Shown here one piece after another: positions 24,612 through 44,788 of a stretch of DNA of 64,000 bases. The stretch's first letter is position 1, and the number at the start of each line of letters is the position of its first letter. A model generated the notes under the pieces. It saw nothing but the letters and a program-made list of their open reading frames with translations, searched no databases and was not told where the DNA came from. The DNA is from an uncultured Alphaproteobacteria bacterium (GTDB taxonomy: Bacteria; Pseudomonadota; Alphaproteobacteria; Rhizobiales; Xanthobacteraceae), in contig CAVWOV010000035.1 of assembly GCA_963756715.1 (NCBI GenBank), positions 85,728 to 149,727 of the forward strand. The letters are read 5' to 3'. The position numbers and the translations under genes were made by a program.

Positions 24612-26453
24612 TCACGGGGTGGCCGGTTGCTCCTTGATCTCCGGCTCCGGCATGACTTCGCGAATCCGGCTGCGGTCACCTTCCGTATGCAGCGTTAGAT
24701 GCCGGTTATGGAACACCTTGAGCGTCGAGCGGTGCCCGATCGATATGATGGTCGTGGTTGGCAGCCGCTCGTGCAGCAGGCGGTAGACGCGGGCTTCGGC
24801 GGGTTCGTCCAGCGACGCCGACGCCTCATCGAGAAACAGATAGTCCGGCGCATGCAGGATGGCGCGCGCGATGCCGAGACGCTGCTGCTCGCCGAGCGAC
24901 AGAATCCGGTTCCAGTGTGCTTCGTCGGTTAGCCGCTGCGCGAGCGCCGGCAGCCCGACCGCCACCAGCACCTCGGAGACGCATGCCGATTCGAAGGCGC
25001 CCGCCTCCGCCGGATAGCTCACCGCTTCCTCGAGGCTGGCGACCGGGAAGTAGGGCCGTTGCGGCAGGATCATGAGCTTGGCGCCGCGCGGCACCACGAT
25101 GTTGCCGGTGGCGAACGGCCACAGGCCGGCAACCGCGCGGAAGAAGGTGGATTTGCCGCCACCCGACGGCCCCGTCACCAGGGCGTGCTGGCCGGCCTCG
25201 ATGACGATGTCATCGCTGGCGACGAGCGGCGCACCGGAGGGCAGCCGGACCGACAACCCTTCGATCGTCAGCCCGGTCTTGGTTTCGTGGGCGGTGACGT
25301 CGACCCGCGGCGACGAGGCGGTGGCAGCGCGCGCGACCGCGATCGAGTGGTCGAAGCCGTCGAGCCGGGCGATCACGGCGCGCCATTCGGCGAAATCTTT
25401 ATAGATCGTGATGAAGAACGACAGTGCACCCTGCACGCTGTTGAAAGCCGAGGAGGTCTGCACCAGGGCGCCAAGCTGGATCACACCGGAAAAATAGGCC
25501 GGGCTGACGACAACGATCGGAAAAACGATCGAAATCTGGGTGTAGCCGGTGGTGAAGAACGTGAGTCCCTTCTGCCGTGACATGATGAGATGCCAGTTGC
25601 GGACGACGTTGCCGAAGCGGCTGTACAGCCGCTTTGATTCGGTCTTTTCGCCGCCCAGCATGGCGATCTGCTCGGAGTTCTCCAGCACGCGCACCAGATT
25701 GAAGCGGAAGTCCGCCTCGTATCGCTGCTGGTTGAAATTGAGCGGAATGAGCCGCCAGCCGATCCAGTGCGTGATCGCCGTGCCGGCAACCGCGTAGATC
25801 AATGCCGCCCATACCAGATAGCCCGGGATCGTGGTGATCTCGAAGCCAAATATCTGGAATGGTGCGGCGTTCGACAGCGTCCACAGGATGACGATGAACG
25901 ACGCCAGTGTCACCACCGCGCTCAGCATCCCGACGCCGATCGTCAGCGTGCGCTCGATGAACAGCCTGATGTCTTCAGCGATGCGCTGATCGGGATTGTC
26001 GGCGGTGTCGCCGAGCAACTGCATGCGATAATGCGTGGCGTCGTCCAGCCAGTTGTCGAGATACTGCCGGGTCATCCAGCGGCGCCAGCGGATCTGCAGC
26101 CACTGATTCAGGTACAGCTTGTAGACGTGCAACACCGTCGCGGCGGTCGCAAGGACGCAGTAGTACAAAAGCTGGTGGACAAAGACATCCCAATCCCTGC
26201 CCTGCAGGGCATTGTAGAAACTGTTCTGCCAATACGTGAGCAGGACCGTGACGCCGACGAGGCTGAGTTCGACGGCGATCACCGCGGCAAGCAAAACGCG
26301 GCCGGGCCAGCGATCCTCCGATCGAAAGTATGGGATGGCGAGCCGCCAGATGGTGGAAAACGACGAGACGATGCCGGTCACAGGGCTCTCCGACAGGTTT
26401 GCTTCGGTATGGGTTGCATATTGCCAATCGTCGCTCGCGTTTCGATCGGACAT
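24612..26453 (-). CDS. SbmA/BacA-type (ABC_membrane_2, YddA/BclA-like) transmembrane domain fused to an ABC ATPase
   Basis: 613-aa ORF. N-terminal TMD ..FRSEDRWPGRVLLAAVIAVELSLVGVTVLLTYWQNSFYNALQ..NPDQRIAEDIRLF.., and C-terminal Walker A GPSGGGKST, signature LSLGEQQRLGIARA, Walker B LFLDEASASLD. Confidence 0.8.
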   Translation of the reverse strand: MSDRNASDDWQYATHTEANLSESPVTGIVSSFSTIWRLAIPYFRSEDRWPGRVLLAAVIAVELSLVGVTVLLTYWQNSFYNALQGRDWDVFVHQLLYYCVLATAATVLHVYKLYLNQWLQIRWRRWMTRQYLDNWLDDATHYRMQLLGDTADNPDQRIAEDIRLFIERTLTIGVGMLSAVVTLASFIVILWTLSNAAPFQIFGFEITTIPGYLVWAALIYAVAGTAITHWIGWRLIPLNFNQQRYEADFRFNLVRVLENSEQIAMLGGEKTESKRLYSRFGNVVRNWHLIMSRQKGLTFFTTGYTQISIVFPIVVVSPAYFSGVIQLGALVQTSSAFNSVQGALSFFITIYKDFAEWRAVIARLDGFDHSIAVARAATASSPRVDVTAHETKTGLTIEGLSVRLPSGAPLVASDDIVIEAGQHALVTGPSGGGKSTFFRAVAGLWPFATGNIVVPRGAKLMILPQRPYFPVASLEEAVSYPAEAGAFESACVSEVLVAVGLPALAQRLTDEAHWNRILSLGEQQRLGIARAILHAPDYLFLDEASASLDEPAEARVYRLLHERLPTTTIISIGHRSTLKVFHNRHLTLHTEGDRSRIREVMPEPEIKEQPATP

Positions 26454-26772
26454 TTCGCCAGCCCGGACCGTCCGGCGCTGACGTGAACAAGGCCACTCGC
26501 CTCATGCGATCTATTGCGCCGGCCGACAGTCGTGCGGCCAAGCGAGAGGATGCCGATACCGAGCTTCCGCCGCCGCGTCACCGGGTGACGAATTCTTCTG
26601 CCCCGTGAACGGATTGGCGTTCTCAATTGCAGTATAAACTCCGGTACCCAGTTGCGATGACGCGGCTGTGATTTTGCTGCCGCGCGACTCGTCTTCAGAA
26701 GTCCGCATCATTCTTGCCGCAGAGTCCGACATGCAGATTTCTGAACCAAAGCCACACTAGATCAATAAGTTG

Positions 26773-26846
26773 CTAGTGTCCTCGATTCCGAAGTTCGAAA
26801 ACGACCGTGCCGCGGAATGATACGAACTTCGGAATCGGACCACGAG
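26773..26846. repeat. Long hairpin of the 20071-20147 family, immediately 3' of the MbtH-like gene stop
   Basis: CTAGTGTCCTCGATTCCGAAGTTCG-N25-CGAACTTCGGAATCGGACCACGAG. Preceded by ATAAGTTG, as is hairpin B at 20153-20160. Stem positions differ from hairpin A but pairing is kept. Confidence 0.8.
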
Positions 26847-26848
26847 CG

Positions 26849-27121
26849 TCAGTGCTTGTTCGTCGAATCCGGCGTGGCGACTGAATCTTCCGTCTGCCGG
26901 TTCATTTCAGCAGCTTCCTGCATGCTTCTGATCAGGCTATTTGGACGCATGTCGGTCCAATTCCGGTTGATGAATTCAAGGCAGGCCGCGCGGCTGTCCT
27001 CCTTGTGGACGATCGTCCAGCCCTCCGGGACTTCGATGAAGGTCGGCCAAAGGGAATGCTGTCCCTCGTCGTTGACCAGCACGTGGTAGATGCCATTTTC
27101 ATCTTCAAACGGATTTGTCAC
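26849..27121 (-). CDS. mbtH: MbtH-like protein
   Basis: [50 protein letters not shown] is the MbtH signature with its three conserved Trp. Preferred start is GTG 27121 after AGGGAG; the ORF track starts at TTG 27175. Confidence 0.9.
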
Positions 27122-27200
27122 ATCGGTCTCCCTTGACCACGCCAAGCGTGCGGCCGTCGGCTCCGTTAAGGTCAATCAGTCGGCGACGCTTCCCGTCAAG

Positions 27201-28600: not shown

Positions 28601-30241
28601 ATGTCATTCTTTCAACTTGTTCGCCGCGAAATGCAGAGCTCCCTGCAGCGGCTGGCCGTCATGTCCTGTCTTGGGGGCTTGAGCAACGCAACAATTCTCG
28701 CCGCGATCAATTCCGGTGCGCAAGATGCGGGCAGCGGTCACGTCAGTGTCTGGGCGGCGGCGCTTTTTGTCGTCGCGCTCTATCTCTTTATCAAGACGCA
28801 GCATTACATCTTCATAACGGCAACCGTCGAGATCGAGGCGATCATCCACAGTCTGCGAGTGCGCCTGATGGACCAGGTGCGCCGCTCCGAGCTTCTTCCG
28901 CTCGATGCGATCGGACGCTCGGAGATCGTGGCCGCCATCAACAAGGATACGGCGGCGCTCACCCAGGCGACCAACATGTTCGCCTTTGCCGGGCAGGGGA
29001 TCGTTCTGGTTATCTTCGTCGGGATTTACGTCGCGTATCTGTCGATCCTGGCGTTCGTGATAAGCGTGACGATTCTCGGCGTGGCGGCGGTGATATTTCA
29101 CGCCAAGAGTCATCAGTTGGACGCCGGAACGCGCGAGGCCGCCCAGTGGGACAATAAATTGTTCGATCGCCTGATGGACCTTCTCGACGGGTTCAAGGAG
29201 GTCAGGCTTAACAAGGCGCGCAGCGACGACCTGTACGACGACGTCATCGAGGTGTCGCGGACCGCCGCCAACATCAAGATCCGGACGCAGAGCGAAACCT
29301 TCAAGCGGTTGGTCTTCTCGCAGACCTCGATGTATCTCCTGCTCGCGTCGATCGTGTTCGTGGTTCCGACCTTCAGCAACACCACCGACGGCTCGATCAC
29401 CAAGACGACGACGGCCCTGATGTTCGTGGTCGGGGTGTGCATCGGCTTCGTACAGACGATCCCGATCCTGACGGCCGCGAATGCCGCGGCGGACAACATC
29501 GAGCGGCTCGAGGAAAGACTGCGATTGATCTCCTCGAACTCGCAGGAGGGACCGGGAAGTCCGGCGGTTCGGTTCGATAAGATCGAGATGCGGAATATCT
29601 TGTTCCGTTATGTCGACAAGCTGTCCGAGGCGGTGTTCCAGGTCGGGCCGGTCGACTTCACCCTGCGTTCCGGCGAGCTCGTCTTCATCACCGGCGGCAA
29701 TGGCTCGGGGAAGTCGACCTTCCTGAAGGTGCTCGCCGGCCTCTATCTGCCGGATTCAGGCACGATCACGCTCGATGGCGGAAGCGTTAACGATCGCACC
29801 CGCGACGATTATCGTGCTTTGATCTCGGCGATTTTCGTTGACTATCATCTTTTCCGGCGGCTGTATGGGATTGCCGATCCTGATCCCGATGAGGTCGATC
29901 GGCTGCTGACGGAGTTCCGGTTGCGCGATAAGACGCGCCTCGCCGATGGCGAGTTTACCACTCTCGATCTATCAAGCGGCCAGCGTAAGCGCCTTGCTCT
30001 CATCGTGAGCATGCTGGAAAAGCGGCCGCTGCTGTTGCTGGACGAGTGGACCGCTGATCAGGATCCGGAGTTTCGTCGCAAGTTTTACGACGAGCTGTTG
30101 CCGGCATTGCAACGTTCGGGCGCCACGATAGTGGTCATAACCCACGATGATCGCTATCTCGACGAACTGAAGATTCCGGCTCGCAGGCTTCGGATGGATG
30201 AAGGTCGCTTCGTCGGGCGGCATTCCGTGGAGAACGGCTGA
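28601..30241 (+). CDS. Cyclic-peptide-type ABC exporter (SyrD/PvdE/YojI-like fused TMD-ATPase)
   Basis: 546-aa ORF. A six-TM N-terminal half, then Walker A GGNGSGKST, signature LSSGQRKRLALI, Walker B LLLDEWTADQD. Confidence 0.85.
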   Translation: MSFFQLVRREMQSSLQRLAVMSCLGGLSNATILAAINSGAQDAGSGHVSVWAAALFVVALYLFIKTQHYIFITATVEIEAIIHSLRVRLMDQVRRSELLPLDAIGRSEIVAAINKDTAALTQATNMFAFAGQGIVLVIFVGIYVAYLSILAFVISVTILGVAAVIFHAKSHQLDAGTREAAQWDNKLFDRLMDLLDGFKEVRLNKARSDDLYDDVIEVSRTAANIKIRTQSETFKRLVFSQTSMYLLLASIVFVVPTFSNTTDGSITKTTTALMFVVGVCIGFVQTIPILTAANAAADNIERLEERLRLISSNSQEGPGSPAVRFDKIEMRNILFRYVDKLSEAVFQVGPVDFTLRSGELVFITGGNGSGKSTFLKVLAGLYLPDSGTITLDGGSVNDRTRDDYRALISAIFVDYHLFRRLYGIADPDPDEVDRLLTEFRLRDKTRLADGEFTTLDLSSGQRKRLALIVSMLEKRPLLLLDEWTADQDPEFRRKFYDELLPALQRSGATIVVITHDDRYLDELKIPARRLRMDEGRFVGRHSVENG

Positions 30242-31509
30242 TGAGAGCATATCCGACCCTGGAGGGAACGCCCCTTCCGCCACCGAAGAAGAGCTGGTGG
30301 CGGCATTTCATCGAGCACCGGCTGCCCGGCATCGTCATCTTCCTGATGGTCGTGTCGCTGATCGTTGTCGTGCTCTATCCCTACATGGTGGTGTCGGTTC
30401 CGAGCGGTCACGTTGGCGTCCTGTGGAAGCGGTTTGGCGGCGGCACGGTGCTGGATCGCCGCGATTTGAAGGACGAGGGCCTTCACATCCTCTTTCCCTG
30501 GGACCGGCTGTTTCTGTATGACCTGCGATTGCAGTCGATCACCGAGACCTACCACGCCATCACCAAGGACGGCGTGAGCATCGGAGCGACCATCAACGTC
30601 CGATTCCGGCTGCAGCACGACTTCGTCCCTAAGCTGCAGCAGGCAGTCGGGCCGGATTATCTGAATTTGCTGGTGCGCCCCGAGATCGGCAGCCGCGTGC
30701 GCGAGGTCATTGCCGAGTACACGGCCGAAGAGGTCTATTCGACGAAGCGTCAGGAGATTCAGGATATCGGCCGCGAGCGCACCAAGAAGATGATGGGCGA
30801 GATGGCCGAACGGGAAACCGGCGAGCTGCAAAGAATCAAGCTGAGCGAGACGCTCAAAATCTACGACGTGCTCATTTTGGATATCGAGCTGCCGGCGATC
30901 GTGGTCAACGCCATCAATCGCAAGATCGAACAGTATTATGTCTCGGAGGAGTACAAGTTTCGCGTTGAGCGCGAACGGCGGGAGTCGGAACGCAAGCAGA
31001 TCGAGGCGGTCGGTATCCGCAATTTCCAGCAGACCGTGAGCCAGGGAATCTCGGATTCCTATTTGCGATGGCGCGGCATCGAGGCGACGCTTCAACTCGC
31101 ACAATCGAACAACGCGAAGATCGTGATTGTCGGCGGCGGCAAGGACGGTCTTCCGATCATTCTCGGTAATGTCGACGCGCCGGCGACGGCGCCCGCAACG
31201 CGGCCTGCTCCCCCGGAGGGCGATCCGGCCGCGAAGGAAAGACCCACGGCGGCAGGTCCGGCAAAGCCGCTGGAGAAGACGCCGGCGACCGGTCTGGCGA
31301 CGCCTGCTGAGAAGGCGCCGCCCGCCGATGCCACGCCTTCGTCGGCGGCCGCGACGCCGCCGGCGTCGACACCGGCTCCGCCACGTCAGTCGTGGCCGCT
31401 GACTTTGGCCGACTTCGAGGCCATGCTGTCCCGACTTGTGCGTCCGATCGATCCGAATTCGGCGTCGAAGCCGCCGCAATCGACCGAAGGACGGACGGCT
31501 CAGCCTTAG
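30241..31509 (+). CDS. SPFH/band-7 (prohibitin/HflC-like) membrane protein with a long Pro/Ala/Thr-rich C-terminal tail
   Basis: ATG overlaps the exporter stop (TGATG). N-terminal TM helix, SPFH core (..VPSGHVGVLWKRFGGG..ITKDGVSIGATINVRFRL..), a coiled-coil region, then ..APATAPATRPAPPEGDPAAKERPTAAGPAKPLEKTPATG... Confidence 0.8.
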   Translation: MRAYPTLEGTPLPPPKKSWWRHFIEHRLPGIVIFLMVVSLIVVVLYPYMVVSVPSGHVGVLWKRFGGGTVLDRRDLKDEGLHILFPWDRLFLYDLRLQSITETYHAITKDGVSIGATINVRFRLQHDFVPKLQQAVGPDYLNLLVRPEIGSRVREVIAEYTAEEVYSTKRQEIQDIGRERTKKMMGEMAERETGELQRIKLSETLKIYDVLILDIELPAIVVNAINRKIEQYYVSEEYKFRVERERRESERKQIEAVGIRNFQQTVSQGISDSYLRWRGIEATLQLAQSNNAKIVIVGGGKDGLPIILGNVDAPATAPATRPAPPEGDPAAKERPTAAGPAKPLEKTPATGLATPAEKAPPADATPSSAAATPPASTPAPPRQSWPLTLADFEAMLSRLVRPIDPNSASKPPQSTEGRTAQP

Positions 31510-31525: not shown

Positions 31526-32185
31526 CTACGCTCTCGGGGACCTCTCCGCCCCGATGGGAGACAGGAACGCCACCGCCACCAGGTGCGTCGACACGCAAAA
31601 TCGCAGGTCGACGACCCGGCCGTTGCGGACGGTGGCGGTACGCTCCGGGAAACTGACTTCGACGTCGTGATGATCGAGAAAGGTCTGATCGAGCGGAAAA
31701 ACCGCCTTGTACGCCGCTTCCTTGGCGACAAAGAGCAGCCGTCCGCCGTACGGGTCGTGACCGATATTCAGCCGCTCGGCGGGCGTCGCGACCAACTCCA
31801 CCAAGTCGGGCGGCAACGGTTCCGCCGGCTCGATGTCGATGCCCAGCGCGCCGACCTCACGCTGTAGCCCGACCGCCGCAATCGCGACCCGCGCGTCGTG
31901 GGCCATGGAGCCAACGACGCCCGCCGGCCAGATCGGGGCGCCCGAGGGGGATTTCAGCAATTCGTAATCCGGGATCCCCAGTCGCGCGAGGAGTTCCCGT
32001 GCGACGAGACGCGCCGCCCCGCTCGCTCGGCGCACACCGACGACGCTTGACGCGAATGCCTGGGTTTCATTGGGCAGCAGGGCATCTTCGTCGCCTGGTA
32101 AGATCAGCCGGTGCGCGATCATGATCCCCGGCACAACGAGCGCGGCGGTCGCCGACTCAAGCGAGGGATCCGTGGTCGCGGTCAT
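31526..32185 (-). CDS. 4'-phosphopantetheinyl transferase (EntD/Sfp type)
   Basis: ..GIDIEPAEPLP.. and ..FVAKEAAYKAV.. PPTase motifs. Starts 59 nt downstream of the NRPS stop on the same strand. Confidence 0.85.
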   Translation of the reverse strand: MTATTDPSLESATAALVVPGIMIAHRLILPGDEDALLPNETQAFASSVVGVRRASGAARLVARELLARLGIPDYELLKSPSGAPIWPAGVVGSMAHDARVAIAAVGLQREVGALGIDIEPAEPLPPDLVELVATPAERLNIGHDPYGGRLLFVAKEAAYKAVFPLDQTFLDHHDVEVSFPERTATVRNGRVVDLRFCVSTHLVAVAFLSPIGAERSPRA

Positions 32186-33099
32186 GATTCGAACAGGTCA
32201 GGGGTCGGCGATGATACCATCCGCAGCGCGGGCGCGCGCGGCTTCATGAAGGCAGGTCATCGGCCAGGGGTGACGCATGATGCGTCGGCAGAGAAACCGG
32301 GGAACGTGCGGGGCTATCGAGTTCGCTCGCCAGCACCCGGCAAATCTCGGCGACCGGAGCGGGGTCCATCATGGTCTCGTGCGTGCACTCGATGCGATGG
32401 ACCTTGATCCGGCCGTCGACAAAGGGCTTCCAAGTCTCGATCGGCGGCTTCGGTTCGCCTTCTGTCGCCACGAAGAGCAGCATGTCGCCGTGGAATCGCT
32501 GCGGCGAGAATCTCCTCATGAGGCGGGTGCTGTTCTCGAACGAATCCATGATGGCTTGATGGTGACGTTCGGCGAGCACTGATCGAATGTGCCCTTCGCG
32601 TTGAAGAGTTTCCAGCATAGCTTCTAGCGGCGCGTTGGCCACACCGGCGAAAAGAACTTCCTTTTCGCGTTCCTCGTCATTCGGAAGCAGCAGCGTCTCA
32701 CGATCGCTTGGATAGCTATCGAGAAGGGCGAGCACAGCGACCTCTTCGCCGATCGACTGCAGGCGCGTGGCGATTGCATGGGCCACAAGACCGCCAAACG
32801 ACCAGCCGAGTAGGTTGTAGGGCCCGACCGGTTGAACTTCGCGAATGAGGTTGAGATAGTCGGCCGCCATGTCCTCGATCGTTTCGGGAAACGCATCTTG
32901 CTCCGTTAGATTTCGGGCCTGCAATCCGTAAATCGGATGATCCGGCGGTATGTGCCGGATGAACCTCGAATACGGCCAACTGAATCCGCCCGCGGGATGA
33001 ACGCAAAATAACGGGCGCGAATTTCCCGACCGGCGAATTGGCAGTAGCGCCTCAAAATCGGAATGGCTCGGTGCATCCGCCGTGAGCTGTCTGGCGAGC

Positions 33100-33890
33100 G
33101 CCGCCACGGTCGGGGCCTCGAACAGGCTGCGGATCGCGATCTCGACATCGAGCGCGGCGCGGATGCGGCCGATCAGCCGGGTGGCCAGCAGCGAGTGTCC
33201 GCCAAGCTCGAAGAAGTTGTCGTCGATGCCGACCTGCGCGAGCCCCAGCGTCTCGGCAAACAAACCGCACAGCACCTCCTCGTGCGGCGTGCGCGGCAGA
33301 CGCCGCAGCGCCATGACGGGCGCCTCCGGCTCGGGCAGCGCCCGCCGGTCGAGCTTGCCGTTCGGCGTCAGCGGCAGCCGAGGGAGCACCACGAACGCCG
33401 CCGGCACCATGTAGTCCGGCAGGCTCGATGACAGGTGCGCGCGCAGCGCCGCCGCATCCGGCGCCGTCGCGCCGTCGGTTGCGACCACATACGCCACCAG
33501 CCGCAGCGAACCACTACCGCTCCCGCCTGCGGCGCCAGCGTCGTGGGCGTTATCGGATGTCTGACTGTCTTGCGAAGTGGGCCCGCCATCGCGCCGCGCC
33601 ACCACGGCGGCCTGCGCCACGCCCTCATGGCGCTTGAGCGCCGCCTCGATCTCGCCCGGCTCGATGCGGAAGCCGCGCAGCTTCACCTGCGCGTCCGCCC
33701 GCCCCAGGAAGTCCAGCACCCCATCGGGCCGCCAGCGCGCCAGGTCGCCGGTGCGGTACATCCGGCTCCCCGCCGGACCAAACGGGTCGGCCACAAACCG
33801 CTCCGCCGTCAGACCCGAACGCCCCAGATAGCCCCGCGCCAGACCCGCACCCGCAACATACAATTCGCCGCTCACGCCCGGAGGAACGGG
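33100..33890. repeat. Intragenic NRPS repeat, copy in module 3 (A6-A10 subdomain + carrier domain)
   Basis: 791 nt, the same length as 41541-42331. I found only about 6-8 mismatches by eye. Confidence 0.9.
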
Positions 33891-35040: not shown

Positions 35041-36870
35041 TCGCCGATCGCCTGGACGCTGGCCGCATCGAACAGGTCGGCGCGGTAGTCGAGCCGCAGC
35101 CGCAATCGTTTGCCCGGCGCCGCCAGCAGGCTCAGCGGATAGTGCGTGGCGTCGTGTCCGGCGATGCCGGTGACACGCAGGCCGCCAGCTTCGGTAGCGA
35201 GGCCCGCCTCGTCGACCGGATAGTTCTCGAACACCGTCAGCGTGTCGAACAGCTCACCCAAGCCAGCCAGCCCCTGGATCTCGGCCAAGCCTAATTGCTG
35301 ATGTGCAATGAGCCGCGACTGGCTGTCCTGCAACTCCCTGAGCAGGTCGACGAACGGCTTGGCGGATGGCAGCTTGAGACGCAGCGGCAGCGTGTTGATG
35401 AACAGCCCCACCATGGTCTCGATGCCGGCAATCTCCGGCGGCCGGCCCGCCACCGTGACGCCGAACACCACGTCGTCGCGGCCGATCAGCCGGCCGAGCA
35501 GGATGCCCCAGGCGGCCTGGATGTAGGTGCTGAGCGTGAGCCCCTGGGCGCGCGCCTGCCGGGTCAGCGCCGTGGTGAGTTCTTCGCTCAGTTCCAGTGA
35601 GAGTTGTTCGGGCACGGCCGGCGCGCGGGTACGCTCGCGCGGTGCCAGATAGGTCGGCTCCTGCAGTCCGGCCAGCGCCTCGCGCCATGCGGCCGTCGCG
35701 GCGGCATGGTCCTGCCGGGCGATCCAGGCCAGATAGTCGCCGTAGGGGGTGACACGCGGCAGCGCCGCAGCGGCGTCACCGTCTTGGATGCGATGTTGGG
35801 CGCCATCCTGGGCGTGGGCTTGGCGGTTGTGCGCATAGAGCGTGAGCAGTTCGCGCACCAGCACCGGCAGCGACCAGCCGTCCAGCAGGATGTGATGGCT
35901 GGTGAGAACGAGCCGGTGCTCGCCGGCGGCGAGCCGGATCAGCGCAAAGCGCAACAGCGGCGGCGCGGCCAGATCGAAGCGCCCGGCGCGATCCTGCGTG
36001 AGGAGATCGGCGAGACGTTGCGTACGCGCGGCCTCGTCCAGCAGTGACAGATCGATGTTGCGCCAGTGCGGCTCGACGTCCGGCACGATGACCTGCACGG
36101 GCCGGTCGAGGCCGGTATGCCGGAAGCCCGCGCGCAGGTTGGCATGACGCTGGATGAGCCCCCGCGCCGCCGCCGCCAGGGCGTCGGCGTCGAGCGCGCC
36201 CGCGAGGTTGAGAACCAGCTGGATCGTATAGACGTCGGGCGCCTGCGCATCGTACAGCGCATGGAACAGCAGGCCCTCCTGCAGCGGCGCCAGCGGCAGG
36301 ATGTCGTCGATCCGCGGGTATTGGCGCTCCAGCTGCATCGATCTCGCTCTGGGTCAGCTTGCACCAGCGGCAGATCGCTCGGCGTGCGGCCGCCCGCACC
36401 GGGCACAGTCGCATGCCGCGCCAGTGCCGCGAGTGCCCGGAACCAGCCCTGCGCCAGGTCGCGCACCATGGCTTCATCGATCAGCGCCGGCGCCCACGTC
36501 CAGGTGGCGCTGAGGCCAGGCCCATCGGGCCCATCGAGGGTCAGCGCATTGATCTCGATGGCATGCGCCAGGGCCAGCGCCGGATCGCCGCCGCCCAGCG
36601 GCACCGCCTCGGGCGCGGCCGCCCAGTCCGCCGTGCCGTCCGGTGCCGCGGAGCCGAAGCGTCCAGGGAAGTGCCCAGGGAAGCGGCCGAGATAGTTGAA
36701 GCCGATCTGCGGCGTCGGCAGCTGCGCAAGCTGCGCGGCGGTCTGCGGGTTGAGGTAGCGCAGCAGCCCGTAGCCCAGCCCGTTGTCGGGCAGCGCCCGC
36801 AACTGCTCCTTGATGGCTTTGAGCGCGCCACCCAGTGCCGGGCCGCCCGCCAGCGCATCGTCGAGATCGA

Positions 36871-37040
36871 GCGCGCTTGGATTAGGCGCACTTGGACTAA
36901 GCGCACTGGGATCAAGCGCACTTGGATCAAGCCGCACCGGGTAGAGGCTGGTGAACCAGCCCACCGTGCGCGAGAGATCGAGGTCGGCGGCGATCTCCTC
37001 GCGGCCAAACTCCTCGCGGCCAAACTCCTCGCGGCCATGA
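36871..37040. repeat. In-frame 15-nt tandem repeats inside the epimerisation domain
   Basis: 36871-36945: gcgcNcttggaNtaN-type units x4-5, encoding LDPSALDPSALSPSAPNPSALD. 36996-37040: ctcctcgcggccaaa x3, encoding GREEFGREEFGREE directly after the conserved EGHGRE motif. Confidence 0.9.
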
Positions 37041-38137
37041 CCTTCGACATCGACCAGCACGGCGTGCCGGCCGCCACTGCGGCCATGCCGCCGGCACCAG
37101 TCCGTCACCGCCAGCGCCAGGCCGGTGAGCAGCACGTCGTTGATGCCGGCATGGAACGCCGCCGCCACGCGGGTCAGCAATGCGCCCGTCACGGTGGCGG
37201 GCAGCGTCAGCGTGAGCTCCCGGGCGGTGCCGGTGCGGTCGCGGGTACGGTCGAGCGCACCGTCGAACAATGACAGCACCGGCCCATCCCACATCCCGGT
37301 CCAGAGCGGCAGTTCGGCGATCCGAACCGGATCCTGCGCGTTGGCCGCAAGTTCATGGGCCCAGCGCCGGAACGAGCTGCCCGCCGCCGGCAATGCGGGC
37401 GTGCGGCCCTGCGCAATGCTCTCCCAGGCGGTCTTCAGGTCAGGCAGCAGGATGCGCCACGACACGCCGTCGACCGCCAGGTGATGGATCACCAGCAACA
37501 GCCGGCCCGCATCTTCCCGGCCGGCATCGAACCACACCGCCTGCAGCATCACGCCGGCGGCGGGAGCAAGCCGTCCGGCGGCCGCTTGCGCCTGCTCGGC
37601 AATCACGGCGCGCCGGGCCGCATCGTCGAGACCCGGCGATATCCACCCGGCGCAGACAGGCGTTCGCCGATACCGCGCCCGAGGGCGCCACCTCCAGGCG
37701 CCATGGTGTCGCGGTGGGCGCCACGGTGTTCGTCAGTGCCGGGCAGGGCGCCGGAGCGGGCGCCGCTGTGCTGCCCGGTGCTGCCGCAATCCCTTCTGCC
37801 GCATCGCCGAGCCGCAGCCGCAGCGCATCGTGGTGATCGAGCAGCGTCTGCAGCGCGCCAGCCAGATGATCCTCGCGCAGCGCCGCCGGCACCGTCACGA
37901 GCATCGCCTGGTTGAAGCGGTCGATCGGCCCGCCGCGTTCCGCCAGCCAGCACATGATCGGCGTCGCCGGCAGCATCCCGGTGGCGATGTCGAGACGGGT
38001 GACGGCGCTCTCCCGCAGGCCGTCCGCCACCGCCGCCAGCGTCGCCACCGTCTGATGCTGGAACACCGCGCGCGGCGTGATCATCAGCCCGGCCTTGCGG
38101 GCCCGGCTGACCAGCTGGATCGACATGATGCTGTCGC

Positions 38138-38810
38138 CGCCAAGCGCGAAGAAGTTGTCGTCGATGCCGACCTGCGCGAGCCCCAGCGTCTCGGCAAACA
38201 AACCGCACAGCACCTCCTCGTGCGGCGTGCGCGGCAGACGCCGCAGCGCCGCAACCGGCGCCTCCGGCTCGGGCAGCGCCCGCCGGTCGAGCTTGCCGTT
38301 CGGCGTCAGCGGCAGCCGATCCAGCACCACGAACGCCGCCGGCACCATGTAGTCCGGCAGGCTCGACGACAGGTGCGCGCGCAGCGCCGCCGCATCCGGC
38401 GCCGTCGCGCCGTCCTTTGCGACCACATACGCCACCAGCCGCAGCGAACCACTACCGCTCCCGCCTGGCGCCAGCTCGTGGCCGCCGTCTTGCGAAGTGG
38501 CCCGCCATCGCGGCGCGCCACCACGGCGGCCTGCGCCACGCCCGCATGGCGCTTGAGCGCCGCCTCGATCTCGCCCGGCTCGATGCGGAAGCCGCGCAGC
38601 TTCACCTGCGCGTCCGCCCGCCCCAGGAAGTCCAGCACCCCGTCGGGCCGCCAGCGCGCCAGGTCGCCGGTGCGGTACATCCGGCTCCCCGCCGGACCAA
38701 ACGGGTCGGCCACAAACCGCTCCGCCGTCAGACCCGGACGCCCCAGATAGCCCCGCGCCAGACCCGCGCCCGCAACGTACAACTCGCCGCTCACGCCAGC
38801 AGGAACAGGC
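38138..38810. repeat. Intragenic NRPS repeat, shortened copy in module 2
   Basis: Aligns with 33201-33890 but is about 17 nt shorter, owing to a rearranged low-complexity linker around 38460-38500. Confidence 0.85.
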
Positions 38811-39600
38811 CCAGATGCATCGTCCAGTACGTACGCTGCGATAGTTCCGGCATCGGGCGGCCGATCGGGATCGTCGAGCTCAGCGTCATCACCGGTCACC
38901 GACAAGCTAAGTCGCATCGATCGTTGCTTCGGTCGGGCCGTAAAGATTATCGATGCTGCGCAATGCGGCATGCAGATTTGACAACTTCTTGCTGCAGCGA
39001 GATCGTGAAGAGCGCTTCGCCGCCCAGATGCAAGCTGATTAATCGCTACCTCAAAGTTGCGGGTCGCCGTAACGAAGAACGGACTGCAGATAGGACGGCA
39101 CGCAACTGACGAACGTCTTGATTCCGGTGTCGGATCGACGAGCTTGGCCGGAAGTCCGACGGCGCTTCGCGGACGCATCGGCGATCACGACCGTCGTGCC
39201 GCCGCCAACAAGCGGCCAGAAGCAACTGTTCGATCGAGGCGTCGAAAGCGAACGGATGATAAGCTGCAGCCCTGAATCGTCGCGATCAACTCGAAGTTCC
39301 TGCATCCAAGCGTAGACGATCTTGTTTGCGAGATTCGCATGCGTGACGGCGACGCCTTTGGGTTGGCCGGATCGATCCGGAGGTGTAGATGACGTAGGCG
39401 GTGGAGTGCGGATTCGATGCGGCCGGCGGTGCGGTGGTTGGCTGACGCGCGATGGCGGTGATCCAGCCGGTCAAGCAGGATCGACCGTCGGGCATCGTGG
39501 GTCGGGCAGCCTGTCGCGATCAGCGCGGCTGTGCGTCAGGAGCACTGGCGGCCGAGCATCGCGCCAGTCATGAAGGCGAGCCGCTCGGTTGGGATACTCC

Positions 39601-39980
39601 GGATCGAGCGGCAGGTATGCGGCGCCGGCCTTGAGGATACCGAGGAGGGCGATGACCATGTCGAAGGAGCGCTCGACGCAGAGCGCCACGATGGTCTCGG
39701 GTCCGGCGCCGAGGGAGCGCAGGTGGTGCGCAAGCTGGTTGGCGCGGGCGTCAAGCTCGCGGTAGCTGAGGCTTTCATCCTCGCAGGTGAGCGCGACCGC
39801 GTCCGGGGTGCGGGCGGCCTGCCGGGCGAACAGCGCCGGGATGGTGGCGGTGGGGATCGGGCGGGCGGTGTCGTTCCAGTCGGTCAGGATGGTGCGGCGC
39901 TCGGCGGGGGAGAGAATGTCGAGGCTGCCGATGGCGCGGGTAGGATCGTTGACGGCGGCCGTGAGCAGCCGGGTGAGGCG
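39601..39980. repeat. Second intragenic NRPS repeat, module 2 copy
   Basis: See 34657-35040. Confidence 0.85.
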
Positions 39981-40788
39981 GCCGGCCAGCATGGCGGCGG
40001 TCGCTTCGTCGAACAGGTCGGCGGCATATTCCAGCACGCCCGCGATGCCGGCCGGTGCGCCGTCAGGGGCGCGCTCCTCGGCGAGCGCAAACGACAGGTC
40101 GAACTTGGCGCTGGCGACCGGCACCTCCTCGAATGAGGTGCGCAGCCCCGGCAGCTCGAGGCTGACCCGGGCGTCGTTCTGGAACGCCAGCATTACCTGG
40201 AACAGCGGGTGATGCGACAGTGAGCGCGCCGGGTTGAGCACCTCCACCAAACGCTCAAATGGCAGCTCCTGGTGGCTGTAGGCCGCAAGGTTGCCGGCCC
40301 GCACCCGCGCCACCAGATCGCCGAAGCCCGGATTGCCCGAGGTGTCGGTGCGCAGCACCAACGTGTTGACGAAGAACCCCACCAGGCCGTCGAGCGCATG
40401 ATCGTGACGCCCCGCCACCGGGCTGCCGATCGGGATGTCGGTACCGGCCCCCAGCCGGCTCAGCAGCGCCGCCAGCCCGGCCTGCAGCACCATGAACAGG
40501 CTGGCGCCGTTCTGTCGCGCCAGCGCCAGCAGCTTGGCATGTAATCCGGCATCGAGCCGCAGCGGCACCCGGCCGCCCCGGTAGCTCGCGACCTCGGCCG
40601 CGGCCGGTCACTGGGAAGCGCAATCGCCTCCGGCAGGTCCGCCAGCGTCTGCGTCCAGTACGCCAGCTGGCGCGCGATGGCGCTTGCCGGATCGCTCTCC
40701 TCGCCCAGAACCTCGTGCTGCCACAGCGTGTAGTCGGCATACTGCACGGGCAGCGCCGGCAGCGCATCGGCCTCCGGCGCGACGCCGC

Positions 40789-40878
40789 CATCAAGCCGCG
40801 CCGCATCGGCGCGGGTGCGATCAAGCCGCGCCGGATCGGCGCGGGTGCCATCAAGCCGTGCCGCATAGGCCTGCGCGA
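40789..40878. repeat. In-frame 30-nt tandem repeat x3 inside condensation domain 2
   Basis: The unit (c/g)atcaagccgcgccgNatcggcgcgggtgc occurs at 40789, 40819 and 40849, encoding [30 protein letters not shown]. Confidence 0.9.
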
Positions 40879-40969
40879 GATCGCGCGCCAACGGCCCAAG
40901 CGAGGAGCCGTCGCCCGCGATGTGATGCAGCAGCAGCAGCAGCACGTGCTCGCGCCGATCGGGCGCGGG

Positions 40970-41125
40970 CTCACCGGACCTGCGCTCACCGGACCTGCGC
41001 CGGACCTGCGGTTGCCCGGCGCGCTCTCTCCTGACGCGCGCTCTCCTGACGCGCTATCCCCCGGCGCGCGGTCTCCCGATGCGCTTTCCGCCTGTGCGCC
41101 ATCTCCCCGTGCGCTCTCGCCCAGC
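40970..41125. repeat. In-frame 15-nt tandem repeats inside condensation domain 2
   Basis: ctcaccggacctgcg x2 plus a partial copy (40970-41010), then seven gcgcN11 units (41021-41125). Together they encode [47 protein letters not shown] just upstream of the HHxxxDG motif. Confidence 0.9.
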
Positions 41126-41520
41126 GCAAACAGATGCGCCCGCAGCGGCGGCTCACACGACAGGTCGAAGCCCCGCTGCTGCGGCGCTGCGCAAAGCGTC
41201 CGTCAGGCCGTCTGCGGCGATTGCCTCCACCCGCAGCTGCGGCCGCGCCGCACTCGCCGCCAGCACCTGCTGGCGCGGCACCCCCAGGGTGTCGGGGAAC
41301 ACCGTGCGCAGGCTCTCGTGCCGCGCCATCAGGTCGCCGAGCGCCAGCTCGAGCGCCGCAACGTCGAGATCGCCGGAGAGCCGCACCGCCAGCGGGATCG
41401 TGTAGGTCGCGCTCGGACCTTCCAGACGGTTGAGGAACCACAGCCGGCGCTGCGCAAACGACAGCGGCACTTCGGCGGGACGCCGCATCACCCGCAGCGG
41501 CGCGCGCGCCGCCGTTGCGT

Positions 41521-44500
41521 CCCCCAGCCGCCGCACCAAGGCCGCCACGGTCGGGGCCTCGAACAGGCTGCGGATCGCGATCTCGACATCGAGCGCGGCG
41601 CGGATGCGGCCGATCAGCCGGGTGGCCAGCAGCGAGTGTCCGCCAAGCTCGAAGAAGTTGTCGTCGATGCCGACCTGCGCGAGCCCCAGCGTCTCGGCAA
41701 ACAAACCGCACAGCACCTCCTCGTGCGGCGTGCGCGGCAGACGCCGCAGCGCCATGACGGGCGCCTCCGGCTCGGGCAGCGCCCGCCGGTCGAGCTTGCC
41801 GTTCGGCGTCAGCGGCAGCCGAGGGAGCACCACGAACGCCGCCGGCACCATGTAGTCCGGCAGGCTCGATGACAGGTGCGCGCGCAGCGCCGCCGCATCC
41901 GGCGCCGCCGCGCCGTCGGTTGCGACCACATACGCCACCAGCCGCTGCGAACCACTACCGCTCCCGCCTGCGGCGCCAGCGTCGTGGGCGTTATCGGATG
42001 TCTGACCGTCTTGCGAAGTGGGCCCGCCATCGCGCCGCGCCACCACGGCGGCCTGCGCCACGCCCTCATGCCGCTTGAGCGCCGCCTCGATCTCGCCCGG
42101 CTCGATGCGGAAGCCGCGCAGCTTCACCTGCGCGTCCGCCCGCCCCAGGAAGTCCAGCACCCCATCGGGCCGCCAGCGCGCCAGGTCGCCGGTGCGGTAC
42201 ATCCGGCTCCCCGCCGGACCAAACGGGTCGGCCACAAACCGCTCCGCCGTCAGACCCGAACGCCCCAGATAGCCCCGCGCCAGACCCGCACCCGCAACGT
42301 ACAATTCGCCGCTCACGCCAGGAGGAACGGGCTCCAAACCGCTGTCCAGGACATAGATTTGCAGATCGGGCAAGCCGCGACCAACAATGCTGCCGGTGCC
42401 CGCCGTTGTCGCCACGTGGTCGAGTGCGATGTGACTGACATGCACCGTCGTTTCGGTGATGCCGTACATGTTGACGAGCCGAGGAGTATCGTCCGGGTAG
42501 TGGCGGTACCATTCGCCAAGCCGTCTGAGCTCAAGCGCTTCACCGCCGAAAATCACATAGCGCAGAGCATGCTGTTTGCTTGAAATCGGAATCCGCCAGC
42601 GCCGCTTCCATCAATTGATAGAACGCGGACGGAGTCTGATTGAGGACCGTCACGCCTTCCCGAACGATCAGGCTCAGAAACTCGGTGGGCGTGCGGCTGG
42701 TGGCATACGGGACCACGACCAACCGGCCGCCATGCAGCAGGGCTCCCCAAATTTCCCATACCGAAAAGTCGAAGGCGAAGGAATGGAACAACGTCCAAAC
42801 ATCATCGGGGCCGAAGTGGAACAACTCTCTTGTCGTATCGAACAGACGAACGACATTGCGGTGCGTAACCGAGACGCCCTTCGGGTTTCCGGTCGAGCCC
42901 GAGGTGTAGATGACGTAGGCGGTGTTATGCGGCAGGAGCCTGTTCGGGGGTGAGAAGGTGGGCGCGCGCGAAATCAGCGCCTGGTCCACGTCGAAACGCA
43001 CGATCTGCATGCCCTCCGTTGGCAATCGATCGAGCAGCGTCGATTGGGTGACCAGCGTGACAACACCGGCATCGGCCAGCATGAAGGCAAGCCGCTCCGG
43101 TGGATAAGCCGGGTCGAGCGGAAGATAGGCGCCACCGGCCTTGAGAATACCGAGCAATCCAATGAGCATTTCGGGCGAGCGCTCGACGCACAGCCCCACG
43201 ATGGTTTCGGGCGCGACCCCCAGCGCCTGCAGATGATGGGCAAGCTGACTTGAGCGCTCGTCGAGCTCGCGATAGCTCAGGCTCACGCCCCCGAATACGA
43301 CCGCAATAGCGTCAGGTGATTGCGCAACCCGGCGAGCAAACAACTCAGGCAGCGTGGCCGCCGGGATTTCAAGGGCCGGCTCGACCGCAGCGGTCGCTTC
43401 ATTCCATGTATGCAGAATGGTCCGCCGCTCGCCGGCGGTAAGAATATCTAGGCTCGCGATGGTGCGGCCGGAATCCGCAAGCGCAGTCAGCAATCGCAGA
43501 AATCGCTGCTGGCGGTCCGCAACATCATCCGTGCTGTGAATTGCCGGATTGGCATCGAAATCGATCCGAAGCGGACCGCCGTCCAGCCGGTCGTAAACTT
43601 GGATCGACAAGTCCTCGACCGGCCCAAGCGAGAGGTTTTTCGCCTCCGCCCGATGGCCCGCGAAATCGAAAGCCATAGTCGAACCGCATGATATTGAGAT
43701 TGAGTCCGAACAGCGACCGAGCATCGTCGATGCCGCCAAGCTCCCGCCGTAGATCCGCAATCTGAAAACGTTGGTGTTCCAATCCGTCACGAATTTGCCG
43801 AGCGGCGCGACCGATTACCTCGGACACGGTCATGCGAGGTTGCACGGCGAGCCGCAATGGCAGCACGTTGGAAACCATTCCGGGAATGCGTCGTGCCGCG
43901 CCGCTGCGCGCGGCGACCGGCAGGCCGAAGGTCACATCTGTCGCGCCGGTGAGGCGATGCAGGAAGATTGCCGTGGCTGCGGCAATGAGATGCGGCAGGC
44001 TCGCTCCCGCATGGCGCGCGGTTAATTCGAGCTGGTCGGCGATGGACCTGGGCAGATAAACGGTGTGACGAATGAAGCCGCCGGACTTGCCGGTACGTTC
44101 GCCGCCCAGACTTACCTGGTCGGGCCGATCGGTCAGACGGTCGATCCAGTATTGCCGATCTTGTGCGAACTGCTCGGACGCGACATAAGCCGCATCCTCA
44201 TCGAGCAAATCGGCAAGGGTTCCGAATGCGCCGCCAAGGGCGGCCGGCCCAACGCTCAACCTGAGTGTAGATGTCCGCCAGGCGCCGGGCGACCAGCGCC
44301 ATTCCCAGCCCGTCCATCACGATGTGATGATAGCGTGCGTACCAGAAGAACCGGTCAGGCGACGCCCTGAACAAGGCATATGAGAACAGCGGTCCGTGCG
44401 TCGGATCGACCGGACGCGCCAGATCGGCCCTCATCCATGTTTCGGCCTCGGCGCGCGGGTCGGGCGCATCGCTGACGTCGATGAATGGCATCGACCACGC

Positions 44501-44788
44501 CGGCGCTTCGCCGACGACCTGCCGCGGGCCGTCCGGGTGCTCGACGATCCGGACACAAAGCGCCTCGGATTCGATGACGACCTGGTGTAATGCCTGCTCG
44601 AACAAGTCCGGGTCGATGGGCCCGTGAATCTCAATGTATTCGCCAATATTGTAGGCGGGACTCGATGGGTTAATCTGCTGAGCGAACCAGATTCCGATCT
44701 GGCCGGCGGAAAGCGGAAAACCAATGGGGTCGGAGATGTTACGGGTGACGTCGATTCTACTGTCACCGTCAGGCTTGATCGAAAACAC
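41521..44788 (-). other. NRPS module 1: N-terminal (starter-position) C domain, A domain (hand-read code DFWNIGMVHK = Thr), carrier domain
   Basis: C motif HHIVMDGLG. A motifs [60 protein letters not shown]. Carrier motif [11 protein letters not shown]. Approximate bounds: C 44788-43400, A 43355-41785, T 41734-41521. Frame breaks near 44255, 43680 and 42570. Confidence 0.8.
41541..42331. repeat. Intragenic NRPS repeat, copy in module 1
   Basis: See 33100-33890. Identity ends just upstream of the GELYVAGAG (A6) motif. Confidence 0.9.

What the first reader, a model, noticed from the sequence alone, without database searches (positions are those of the whole stretch)
24612..44788. Orphan NRPS cluster predicted to build an N-acyl-Thr / D-Xaa / Gln-like tripeptide, with MbtH, PPTase and two peptide-type ABC transporters
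Seen: the minus-strand NRPS has domain order C-A-T / C-A-T-E / C-A-T-TE. Ten-residue specificity codes read by hand against GrsA-PheA numbering give DFWNIGMVHK (A1) and DAWQFGLIQK (A3). A frame-repaired A2 gives roughly D-A-E-S-H-G-L-I-D-K, which I cannot assign. The NRPS is flanked by an EntD/Sfp-type PPTase, a SyrD/PvdE-type exporter, an MbtH-like gene and an SbmA/BacA-type ABC protein. Established: DFWNIGMVHK is the canonical Thr code, and DAWQFGLIDK is a published Gln code (9/10 match here). A C domain at the N-terminus of module 1 usually N-acylates residue 1. An E domain with a GGDSI carrier motif implies a D-residue at position 2. Inference: the product would be a short lipotripeptide, possibly released or cyclised through the Thr hydroxyl. 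I do not recognise this architecture from a characterised metabolite of rhizobial-type bacteria.
Basis: partly seen in the sequence, partly recalled or inferred. Interest (0 to 1): 0.75.

Follow-up and report, generated by a model that had tools for sequence, protein, structure and literature searches.

The report
Frameshift-riddled three-module lipopeptide NRPS gene
The region holds a real three-module peptide synthetase predicted to make a small N-acylated Thr–D-Xaa–Gln peptide, but as deposited its reading frame is broken about 25 times, most likely by long-read assembly errors, so it is an ordinary orphan cluster of uncertain integrity.

Summary
The minus strand from 44788 to 32244 encodes C-A-T / C-A-T-E / C-A-T-TE. 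Specificity codes, placed on GrsA-PheA (1AMU) numbering, are DFWNIGMVHK, DAESHGLIDK and DAWQFGLIQK. The flanks hold an Sfp-type PPTase, a TIGR01194 cyclic-peptide ABC exporter, an MbtH-like gene and an SbmA/BacA-type ABC protein.

C1 is a genuine starter condensation domain: 356 bits to RzmA-Cs, against under 75 bits to ordinary C domains. C2 carries the LCL N-terminal motif and C3 the DCL motif.

The NRPS is not one ORF. It has about 24–30 single-base frameshifts and two in-frame stops, densest in the A2 core, while 51 kb of flanking genes show only one or two.

The indels are all ±1 nt and lie outside homopolymers. They are not shared with a 91–96% identical relative. They interrupt stretches that are otherwise 100% identical between modules. 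I read them as consensus errors of a Nanopore-only metagenome assembly in a strain-variable, internally repetitive gene (about 0.6–0.75). A true pseudogene is the main rival (about 0.22).

The host is an uncultured Hyphomicrobiales bacterium. Relatives conserve only the NRPS and PPTase, and A2 specificity differs between lineages. Verdict: a new member of a known kind, of modest interest.

The parts
32244..44788 (-). Three-module NRPS gene with a GTG start at 44788. As sequenced it is interrupted by about 24-30 single-base frameshifts and 2 stops.
   Evidence: The public gene calls P0195 and P0001, from the same 364,268-bp contig, carry the same breaks.
43440..44713 (-). C1, a starter condensation (Cs) domain with active-site motif HHIVMDG. 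Met occupies the acyl-gate position, equivalent to RzmA R148 and CdaPS1 M165.
41774..43352 (-). A1, code DFWNIGMVHK (Thr).
41525..41734 (-). T1 (GGHSL).
39912..41473 (-). C2, LCL-type (SFAQRRLW; HHIAGDG). An in-frame low-complexity tandem-repeat insert lies just upstream of the His motif.
38271..39842 (-). A2, apparent code DAESHGLIDK (unassigned). Its core differs from the Ser-type A2 of relatives.
38850..39600 (-). A2 core: the most damaged stretch, with 12-15 single-base frame changes and 2 stops in 750 nt. GC is 0.59-0.65, and identity to L003 is only 35-52%.
38025..38231 (-). T2 (GGDSI, the type that precedes an E domain).
36410..37973 (-). E domain, with motifs HHLAVDGVSW, EGHGRE, RTVGWFTSLYP, GLGYGLL and FNYLGRF. 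It contains in-frame 15-nt tandem duplications.
34970..36302 (-). C3, DCL-type (PLQEGLLF; HHILLDGWS).
33333..34899 (-). A3, code DAWQFGLIQK (Gln-like).
33084..33293 (-). T3 (GGHSL).
32319..33017 (-). TE domain (GWSFGG).
33100..33890 (.). Intragenic repeat covering the C-terminal part of the A domain plus the T domain. It is 99.2% identical, without gaps, to 41541-42331 in module 1. The module 2 copy (38137-38868) is about 93% identical.
31526..32185 (-). Sfp-type 4'-phosphopantetheinyl transferase. This is the only accessory gene conserved next to the NRPS in relatives.
30241..31509 (+). SPFH/Band_7 protein, shared with L082 only.
28601..30241 (+). Cyclic-peptide export ABC transporter of the SyrD/PvdE family (TIGR01194).
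26849..27175 (-). MbtH-like protein.
24612..26453 (-). SbmA/BacA-type transmembrane domain fused to an ABC ATPase.

Best explanation
This is one gene for a three-module non-ribosomal peptide synthetase, followed by its Sfp-type PPTase, in the chromosome of an uncultured soil Hyphomicrobiales bacterium.

Predicted mechanism of an intact copy (inferred from domains, not shown):
- The N-terminal starter C domain takes an acyl-CoA or acyl-ACP. Met at the chain-length gate suggests a short to medium chain. It N-acylates Thr loaded by A1.
- Module 2 adds a second residue, which the E domain epimerises. Its identity is unknown here and is Ser-type in relatives.
- The DCL-type C3 joins this residue to a Gln-like residue loaded by A3.
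- The TE releases an N-acyl-L-Thr-D-Xaa-L-Gln tripeptide, either by hydrolysis or by lactonisation.
- The neighbouring MbtH-like gene and the TIGR01194 exporter probably assist adenylation and export.

The roughly 24-30 single-base frameshifts are most likely not biological. I read them as consensus errors of a Nanopore-only metagenome assembly. They are concentrated in this gene because it is internally repetitive and differs between co-occurring strains, above all in the A2 core, so few reads or mis-aligned reads fixed the consensus there.
For: Architecture and motifs.

Starter C domain: 356 bits to RzmA-Cs (7C1H), 239 to CdaPS1-Cs, 159 to EntF, under 75 to ordinary C domains. The gate residue is Met, as in CdaPS1 M165.

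Specificity codes: with literature values.

LCL and DCL assignments: the two N-terminal motifs predict domain context in 70/71 and 69/72 cases among the fetched reference NRPSs.

Frameshifts look error-like for seven reasons:
1. They are confined to the NRPS, about 24-30 in 12.5 kb. The 51 kb of flanks give full-length Pfam matches with one clear split gene and one possible one.
2. Wherever nucleotide alignments resolve them, the indels are ±1 nt, mostly insertions. None lies in a homopolymer longer than 5, and the A2 core has no run of 4 or more.
3. L082, at 91-96% nucleotide identity, lacks the window's extra base at 35022, 34908, 34080, 41179, 39591, 39412 and 39373, and has the base missing at 40595.
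4. Between the window's own module copies, gap openings nearly equal mismatches (27 against 41, and 15 against 31). Stretches of about 330 nt with only 3-4 substitutions are broken only by isolated 1-nt indels.
5. Core A-domain motifs stay intact in the A2 core despite one indel per roughly 50 nt.
6. The related long-read contigs L003 (an MFD MAG) and L001 are also broken, at other positions: 1 of 12 sites within 45 nt, permutation p about 0.7. The contigs L002 (NODE-named, with k-mer coverage in its title, so probably short-read) and L083 are open over 1205 and 840 aa.
7. MFD assemblies are Nanopore-only with one round of Medaka polishing (PMC12313526).
Against: - Provenance of the window is inferred, not shown. 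Only its relatives are identified as MFD or Flye-style contigs.
- Other MFD NRPS loci at 72-77% GC are unbroken, with ORFs of 5050-7504 aa. The damage therefore needs a cause specific to this family. The one I propose, strain heterogeneity with a low-coverage bubble, cannot be tested without reads.
- Three related long-read contigs are all broken in the same gene, which would also fit independent decay.
- The A2 code is unassignable, and no relative closer than 50% identity to the A2 core was found.
- No acyl-activating gene (FAAL or ACP) lies in the window.
- The MbtH and ABC genes are not syntenic with the NRPS in relatives.
Confidence: 0.6

Rival explanations
1. The NRPS is a true pseudogene. 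The cluster was inactivated in this lineage and is decaying by accumulation of small indels, so no product is made.
For: - About 24-30 frameshifts and two in-frame stops are present in the deposited sequence, and the public gene calls are equally fragmented.
- The flanks of the same contig are almost clean.
- Other long-read NRPS loci from the same kind of project are intact, so technology alone does not break NRPS genes.
- The relatives L001 and L003 are also interrupted.
Against: - The indel spectrum is unlike bacterial gene decay. It is only ±1 nt, insertion-biased, outside homopolymers, and has no larger deletions.
- The indel-to-substitution ratio between module copies is about 0.5-0.7. 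From general knowledge, decay would give roughly ten or more substitutions per indel.
- All catalytic motifs survive: HHxxxDG four times, GGxS three times, GxSxG, and the A-domain core motifs.
- GC3 remains 0.74-0.87 in the pieces.
- None of the testable indels is shared with L082.
- L002 and L083 homologues are open.
Confidence: 0.22
2. The contig is locally chimeric. The NRPS consensus mixes two or more strain variants, for example an L082-like two-module form or alternative A2 cores. On this reading the exact module sequence, especially the DAES-type A2 core, may not exist in any one genome.
For: - L082 carries the same PPTase and Band_7 region at 96% identity, but an NRPS without the E and C3 domains.
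- The A2 core has only 35-52% identity to L003 and a different code, while the rest of the protein is 75-90% identical.
- The A2 cores of both the window and L001 are the most damaged parts.
- Long, near-identical intragenic repeats exist that could mislead an assembler.
Against: - The same C-A-T-C-A-T-E-C-A-T-TE order is found independently in L003 and L001.
- L003 shares the upstream Pirin and luciferase-like genes at 89-90% identity, so the overall layout is real.
- There is no abrupt junction in the identity profile other than at the A2 core.
Confidence: 0.1
3. This is a siderophore-type synthetase, in which C1 condenses an aryl (DHB or salicyl) carrier-protein thioester, as in EntF/DhbF, rather than a fatty acyl group.
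For: - Sources name many homologues of the A3-T-TE part 'DhbF' or 'EntF'.
- C1 matches EntF at 159 bits and VibH at 93 bits.
- An MbtH-like gene and a PvdE/SyrD-family exporter are nearby.
Against: - C1 is far closer to lipoinitiation Cs domains (356 and 239 bits).
- The 64-kb window holds none of the following: an aryl-acid adenylating enzyme, an isochorismate pathway, an N-hydroxylase, a TonB-dependent receptor, or a periplasmic siderophore-binding protein.
- The codes are Thr and Gln-like, not hydroxamate or catechol-supporting residues.
Confidence: 0.04

Closest known systems
RzmA / HolA (rhizomide and holrhizin synthetases of Mycetohabitans rhizoxinica), the lipoinitiation Cs-domain NRPSs (PDB 7C1H; PMC7804268)
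   Same: - A single-protein NRPS that begins with a starter C domain and ends with a TE.
- C1 aligns end to end with RzmA-Cs (356 bits, about 50% identity), with the HHxxxDG motif conserved.
- As reported for rzmA and holA, no dedicated acyl ligase or ACP gene lies nearby.
   Different: - Three modules here, against seven or six.
- The gate residue is Met here, against Arg (acetyl chain) in RzmA and Ala (octanoyl chain) in HolA.
- This gene has an E domain and a DCL C domain.
- The host is alphaproteobacterial.
- The product is unknown.
GlbF/GlbC (glidobactin/syrbactin pathway)
   Same: Initiation by Cs-A(Thr)-T, giving an N-acyl-Thr starter (PMC7804268). The second residue may be basic: the first four residues DAES match the Lys code of BacB-M1.
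   Different: There is no PKS module here, an E domain is present, the third residue is Gln-like, and the whole synthetase is one protein. No sequence comparison with Glb proteins was run; this is a resemblance of logic only.
CdaPS1 module 1 (calcium-dependent antibiotic; PDB 4JN3)
   Same: A starter C domain (239 bits) with Met at the acyl-gate position (M165).
   Different: CDA is an 11-residue lipopeptide whose epoxyhexanoyl chain is delivered by a dedicated ACP. No such genes are present here.
Gln-activating A domains (DAWQFGLIDK per Rausch et al. 2005; DAWQFGLINK of the indigoidine synthetases BpsA/IndC)
   Same: The first eight code residues are identical.
   Different: Residue 331 is Q here, not D or N. 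No biochemical data exist for this variant.
SyrD/PvdE cyclic-peptide exporters (TIGR01194) and BacA/SbmA-type ABC proteins
   Same: 28601-30241 passes the TIGR01194 cut-off. 24612-26453 has the SbmA_BacA, ABC_membrane_2 and ABC_tran domains.
   Different: The second protein is far below the SbmA equivalog cut-offs. Neither gene accompanies the NRPS in related loci.

Membership tests
Modular type I NRPS | C, A, T (and TE) domains with their catalytic motifs, in collinear order | tested here: met
   Pfam Condensation, AMP-binding, AMP-binding_C, PP-binding and Thioesterase all hit. The corrected protein has HHxxxDG four times, GGxS three times and GWSFG.
Modular type I NRPS | An uninterrupted reading frame that can yield the multidomain protein | tested here: not met
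   About 24-30 frame changes and 2 stops in the deposited sequence. Whether this reflects the organism or the assembly is unresolved.
Starter (lipoinitiation) condensation domain | Lies at the N-terminus of the first module, with no preceding carrier domain | tested here: met
   The GTG start is at 44788 and the C-domain motif begins 28 residues later. The N-terminus is the same in L003.
Starter (lipoinitiation) condensation domain | Groups with known Cs domains rather than with LCL or DCL domains | tested here: met
   phmmer against the PDB gives RzmA-Cs 356 bits, CdaPS1-Cs 239, ObiF1 187, EntF 159, and all ordinary C domains under 75. No formal phylogeny (NaPDoS) could be run.
Starter (lipoinitiation) condensation domain | Transfers an acyl group from CoA or ACP to the first amino acid | not testable with these tools
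   This needs biochemistry.
E domain followed by a DCL condensation domain | GGDSI-type carrier, E core motifs, and a downstream C domain with the DCL N-terminal motif | tested here: met
   GGDSI in T2. E motifs HHLAVDGVSW, EGHGRE and FNYLG are present. The motif PLQEGLLF lies about 620 aa after T2. In the reference loci this motif follows an E domain in 69/72 cases.
Thr-activating A domain | Stachelhaus code DFWNIGMVHK | tested here: met
   The code is identical. DFWNIGMV equals PvdD-M2-Thr in PMC3207962.
Gln-activating A domain | Code DAWQFGLI(D/N)K | tested here: inconclusive
   9 of 10 residues match, with Q at position 331. No predictor (NRPSpredictor2 or SANDPUMA) was available.
MbtH-like protein | PF03621 domain | tested here: met
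   96.2 bits against a cut-off of 27, covering profile positions 2-52 of 53.
Cyclic peptide export ABC transporter (TIGR01194; SyrD/PvdE) | Score above the curated cut-off over the full length | tested here: met
   317.7 bits against 286.2, covering profile positions 26-534 of 554.
NRPS siderophore cluster | A TonB-dependent receptor, or aryl-acid or N-hydroxylase genes, next to the NRPS | tested here: not met
   None was found among the roughly 45 flanking ORFs scanned.

The most novel reading that the evidence does not exclude
This locus belongs to a family of Cs-Thr / X-E / Gln-TE synthetases, so far uncharacterised and widespread in uncultured soil Hyphomicrobiales. Their small N-acyl tripeptides would diversify in situ by exchange of the A2 core: Ser-type in L003 and L001, DAES-type here. 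Meanwhile gene conversion keeps the A-C-terminal and T regions of all modules nearly identical (99.2% over 791 bp). On this reading the frameshift clusters mark where co-occurring strains differ. The product could be a new small acyl-depsipeptide or signalling lipopeptide.
Probability: 0.3. Interest if true: 0.5.

Novelty: new member of a known kind. Interest (0 to 1): 0.3.

Why it matters
If the gene is intact in the organism, it points to a compact and easily refactored lipotripeptide pathway (12.5 kb, one protein plus a PPTase). It comes from a bacterial group with almost no characterised natural products. It also gives a natural example of A-core swapping on a constant scaffold.

In practice the main lesson is a caution. 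In Nanopore-only metagenome contigs, an NRPS can look like a pseudogene or fragment into a dozen ORFs while its neighbours are clean. Any code-based product prediction, especially for A2 here, needs read-level verification first.

Tried and rejected
- Exact-sequence look-ups of window proteins returned nothing, for the SbmA-type ABC protein and for P0001. The source record could not be fetched, so provenance rests on relatives.
- A megablast of the 13-kb NRPS against PLSDB plasmids found only domain-level matches, at most 12% coverage and about 75% identity.
- The homopolymer-error hypothesis was rejected. No frameshift lies in a long run, and homopolymer density is no higher than in the flanks.
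- The idea that high-GC NRPS genes are always broken in these assemblies was rejected. Other MFD loci have ORFs of 5050-7504 aa at 72-77% GC.
- Shared frameshift hot spots between contigs were tested. Outside the A2 core, 1 of 12 sites falls within 45 nt (p about 0.7). The coincidence after GGEAL in A3 is therefore not significant.
- No methylation-type motif is common to the insertion sites.
- A search with a hand-repaired A2 core found nothing closer than 50% identity, so A2 could not be assigned.
- Literature searches for the exact codes and for a matching lipotripeptide found no characterised product.
- The siderophore reading was rejected for lack of any iron-related genes nearby.
- Programmed frameshifting was rejected. 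There are too many sites, none has a slippery sequence, and none of the testable ones is conserved in L082.
Full report
**What is there**

Between 32244 and 44788 the minus strand carries NRPS domains, but not as one ORF. Stop-to-stop pieces of 100-690 codons alternate between all three frames. Pfam places partial Condensation, AMP-binding, PP-binding and Thioesterase matches on them, in an order that reads C-A-T-C-A-T-(C-like)-C-A-T-TE.

I wrote a frameshift-aware protein-to-DNA aligner and ran it against long NRPS ORFs taken from 80 related loci. The consensus path needs about 24 frame changes. Their approximate window positions are:
- 44263, 43650, 42584, 41176, 40988, 40590
- a run from 39593 to 38909
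- 38463, 37634, 36361, 36336
- 35018, 34906, 34092
- a weakly supported pair at 35789/35763

There are none in the last 1.8 kb. With a lower penalty the A2 core (39600-38850) alone needs 12-15 changes, and two stop codons remain.

The stitched translation is 4,143 residues long, and every catalytic motif is present. The public gene calls from the same 364,268-bp contig (P0195, P0001) run out of frame at the same places. The window therefore reproduces the deposit faithfully.

**Are the frameshifts biological?**

The flanks argue that the contig is generally sound. About 45 ORFs over 51 kb give full-length Pfam matches. The exceptions are one clearly split alpha/beta-hydrolase near 6400 and one possible split near 21800.

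Within the NRPS the indels have an error-like spectrum:
- Wherever nucleotide alignments resolve them they are ±1 nt, mostly insertions, and none sits in a long homopolymer. The A2 core has no run of 4 or more.
- L082 is a 91-96% identical contig from a sister assembly. It lacks the window's extra base at 35022, 34908, 34080, 41179, 39591, 39412 and 39373, and it has the base that is missing at 40595.
- The window's own module copies give the most telling comparison. A2 and A3 share stretches of about 330 nt with only 3-4 substitutions, and these are interrupted by isolated 1-nt indels. Overall there are 27 gap openings against 41 mismatches, and 15 against 31. From general knowledge, decay would give many more substitutions than indels, and a spread of deletion sizes.
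- Core motifs survive in the A2 core despite one indel per roughly 50 nt: YVIYTSGS, GQPKG, FDAS, GGEAL, NLYGPTE and IPIGRP.

Relatives from long-read assemblies are also broken, but elsewhere. L003, an MFD MAG, has 4-5 single-base insertions. Removing four of them opens a 4,027-codon frame. L001 has about 17 by my alignment. Some of those in its A2 core may be induced by my imperfect reference. Even so, no gene was called across L001 5231-6057, and the frame visibly switches there.

Positions do not coincide beyond chance outside the A2 core (p about 0.7). The contigs L002 and L083 are open over 1,205 and 840 codons. L002's name carries a k-mer coverage value, so it is probably a short-read assembly.

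MFD assemblies are Nanopore-only with one Medaka round (PMC12313526).

There is a counterweight. Other MFD NRPS loci at 72-77% GC are unbroken over 5,050-7,504 codons. The damage is therefore specific to this gene family. My explanation is strain heterogeneity and intragenic repeats causing a poorly supported consensus. This is an inference and needs the reads.

I put assembly error at roughly 0.7 overall, including the chimeric-consensus variant, and a true pseudogene at about 0.22.

**What the enzyme would do**

- **C1.** It starts 28 residues after the GTG at 44788. It matches the solved starter condensation domains far better than any other C domain: RzmA-Cs 356 bits, CdaPS1-Cs 239, EntF 159, all others under 75. 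In the alignment to RzmA-Cs, the chain-length gate R148 is Met, as in CdaPS1 (M165). Y138 is kept, Q36 is Glu and Q136 is Ala. Following the trend reported in PMC7804268, this suggests a short or medium acyl chain. This is inference only.
- **A-domain codes.** On 1AMU numbering they are DFWNIGMVHK, DAESHGLIDK and DAWQFGLIQK. The first is the Thr signature. The third shares eight residues with two published Gln codes. The second shares only DAES-G with the BacB Lys code and comes from the damaged stretch, so I leave it unassigned.
- **C2 and C3.** C2 has the LCL-type motif SFAQRRLW directly after T1. C3 has the DCL-type motif PLQEGLLF about 620 residues after the GGDSI carrier. In the fetched reference NRPSs these motifs predict context in 70/71 and 69/72 cases.
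- **E and TE.** The E domain has all its core motifs, and the TE has GWSFG.

The predicted product of an intact copy is N-acyl-L-Thr-D-Xaa-L-Gln. The mode of release is unknown.

**Surroundings and relatives**

Downstream of the NRPS lie, in order:
- an Sfp-type PPTase
- a Band_7/SPFH gene
- a TIGR01194 cyclic-peptide exporter
- a DUF697 gene
- an MbtH-like gene
- an SbmA/BacA-type ABC protein
- a second DUF697 gene
- a ParA-like ATPase

.

Only the PPTase is conserved next to the NRPS in L003 and L001. L082 also shares Band_7. MbtH and the two ABC genes have no counterpart in those loci. Their membership of the cluster rests on adjacency and on the usual association of MbtH with NRPSs.

L003 shares the upstream Pirin and luciferase-like genes at 89-90% identity, so the NRPS sits at a conserved chromosomal site. 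A flanking homogentisate dioxygenase has no hit above 87%. Its named relatives (Microvirga, Xanthobacteraceae, Beijerinckiaceae, Chelatococcus) are at 80-84%. The host is an uncultured Hyphomicrobiales bacterium.

**Mosaic structure**

GC content alternates along the gene:
- 0.57-0.66 in C1, the three A-domain cores and the TE
- 0.70-0.76 in the A-C-terminal, T, C and E scaffolds

The A-C-terminal plus T region of modules 1 and 3 is 99.2% identical over 791 bp, and the module 2 copy is about 93% identical.

Identity to L003 is 75-90% everywhere except the A2 core, where it is 35-52%. L003 and L001 carry a Ser-type A2: DVWHISLIDK in L003, and FDV…/ICSGEAL in L001. L082 has a form without E and C3.

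This is the familiar picture of NRPS evolution by subdomain exchange and intragenic conversion. It is not a new principle.

**Verdict**

I found no characterised counterpart, but MIBiG could not be queried. It is a new member of a known kind. Interest is about 0.3.

Noticed in passing
window 5834-6755 (-): An alpha/beta-hydrolase gene is split between two frames. Abhydrolase_6 profile positions 1-84 lie in one frame and 149-217 in another. This is one of only one or two frameshifts seen outside the NRPS. A short-chain dehydrogenase gene follows in the same stop-to-stop ORF.
   Followed up: partly
window 21342-22290 (+): Two overlapping ORFs lie in different frames. The first has a weak NAD-binding (Epimerase/NmrA) N-terminal match, and the GC3 phase changes between them. 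This may be a second flank frameshift.
   Followed up: no
window 40787-41127 and 36870-37037 (-): In-frame tandem repeats lie inside catalytic domains. In C2, 15/30-nt units encode about 50 residues of SG(E/D)RAPG-like low complexity just before HHIAGDG, plus a 30-nt x 2.8 repeat. In the E domain, 15-nt repeats encode GREEFGREEFGREE and DPSALDPSAL. L003 lacks the C2 insert.
   Followed up: partly
window ~34080 and L003 12246: Both contigs carry a 1-nt insertion at the same codon boundary, four codons after GGEAL in A3, just before GCGCGAG/ACGCGCGAG. The inserted base differs (A against C), and L082 has none. A permutation test says one such coincidence is expected by chance. Even so, many long-contig homologues end in last fragments of 507-572 aa.
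   Followed up: partly
L082 (ERZ25039539 contig_62502) 1-7221: This is a 91-96% identical relative whose NRPS has two C2-like/A3-like modules and no E or C3. It is followed by the same PPTase and Band_7 genes, and then by an unrelated oligopeptide ABC operon and a transposase. The contig itself is full of indels.
   Followed up: partly
window 23283-24565 and 27576-28220 (+): Two DUF697 paralogues bracket the MbtH and SbmA-type ABC genes, one of them preceded by an orphan ParA-family ATPase. The stretch 26-30 kb has lower GC (0.58-0.60) than its surroundings.
   Followed up: no
window 44789-45750: About 950 bp of lower-GC sequence (0.56) lies between the NRPS start and the divergent Pirin gene. 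It has no family match for its ORFs and contains two sigma-70-like sites on the minus strand. It is presumably the promoter region.
   Followed up: no
window 54335-62446 (-): An aromatic-catabolism block lies to the right of the finding, unrelated to the NRPS. It comprises a TctC-family binding protein, fumarylacetoacetase, homogentisate 1,2-dioxygenase, a DctP-type binding protein and tandem acyl-CoA dehydrogenases.
   Followed up: no
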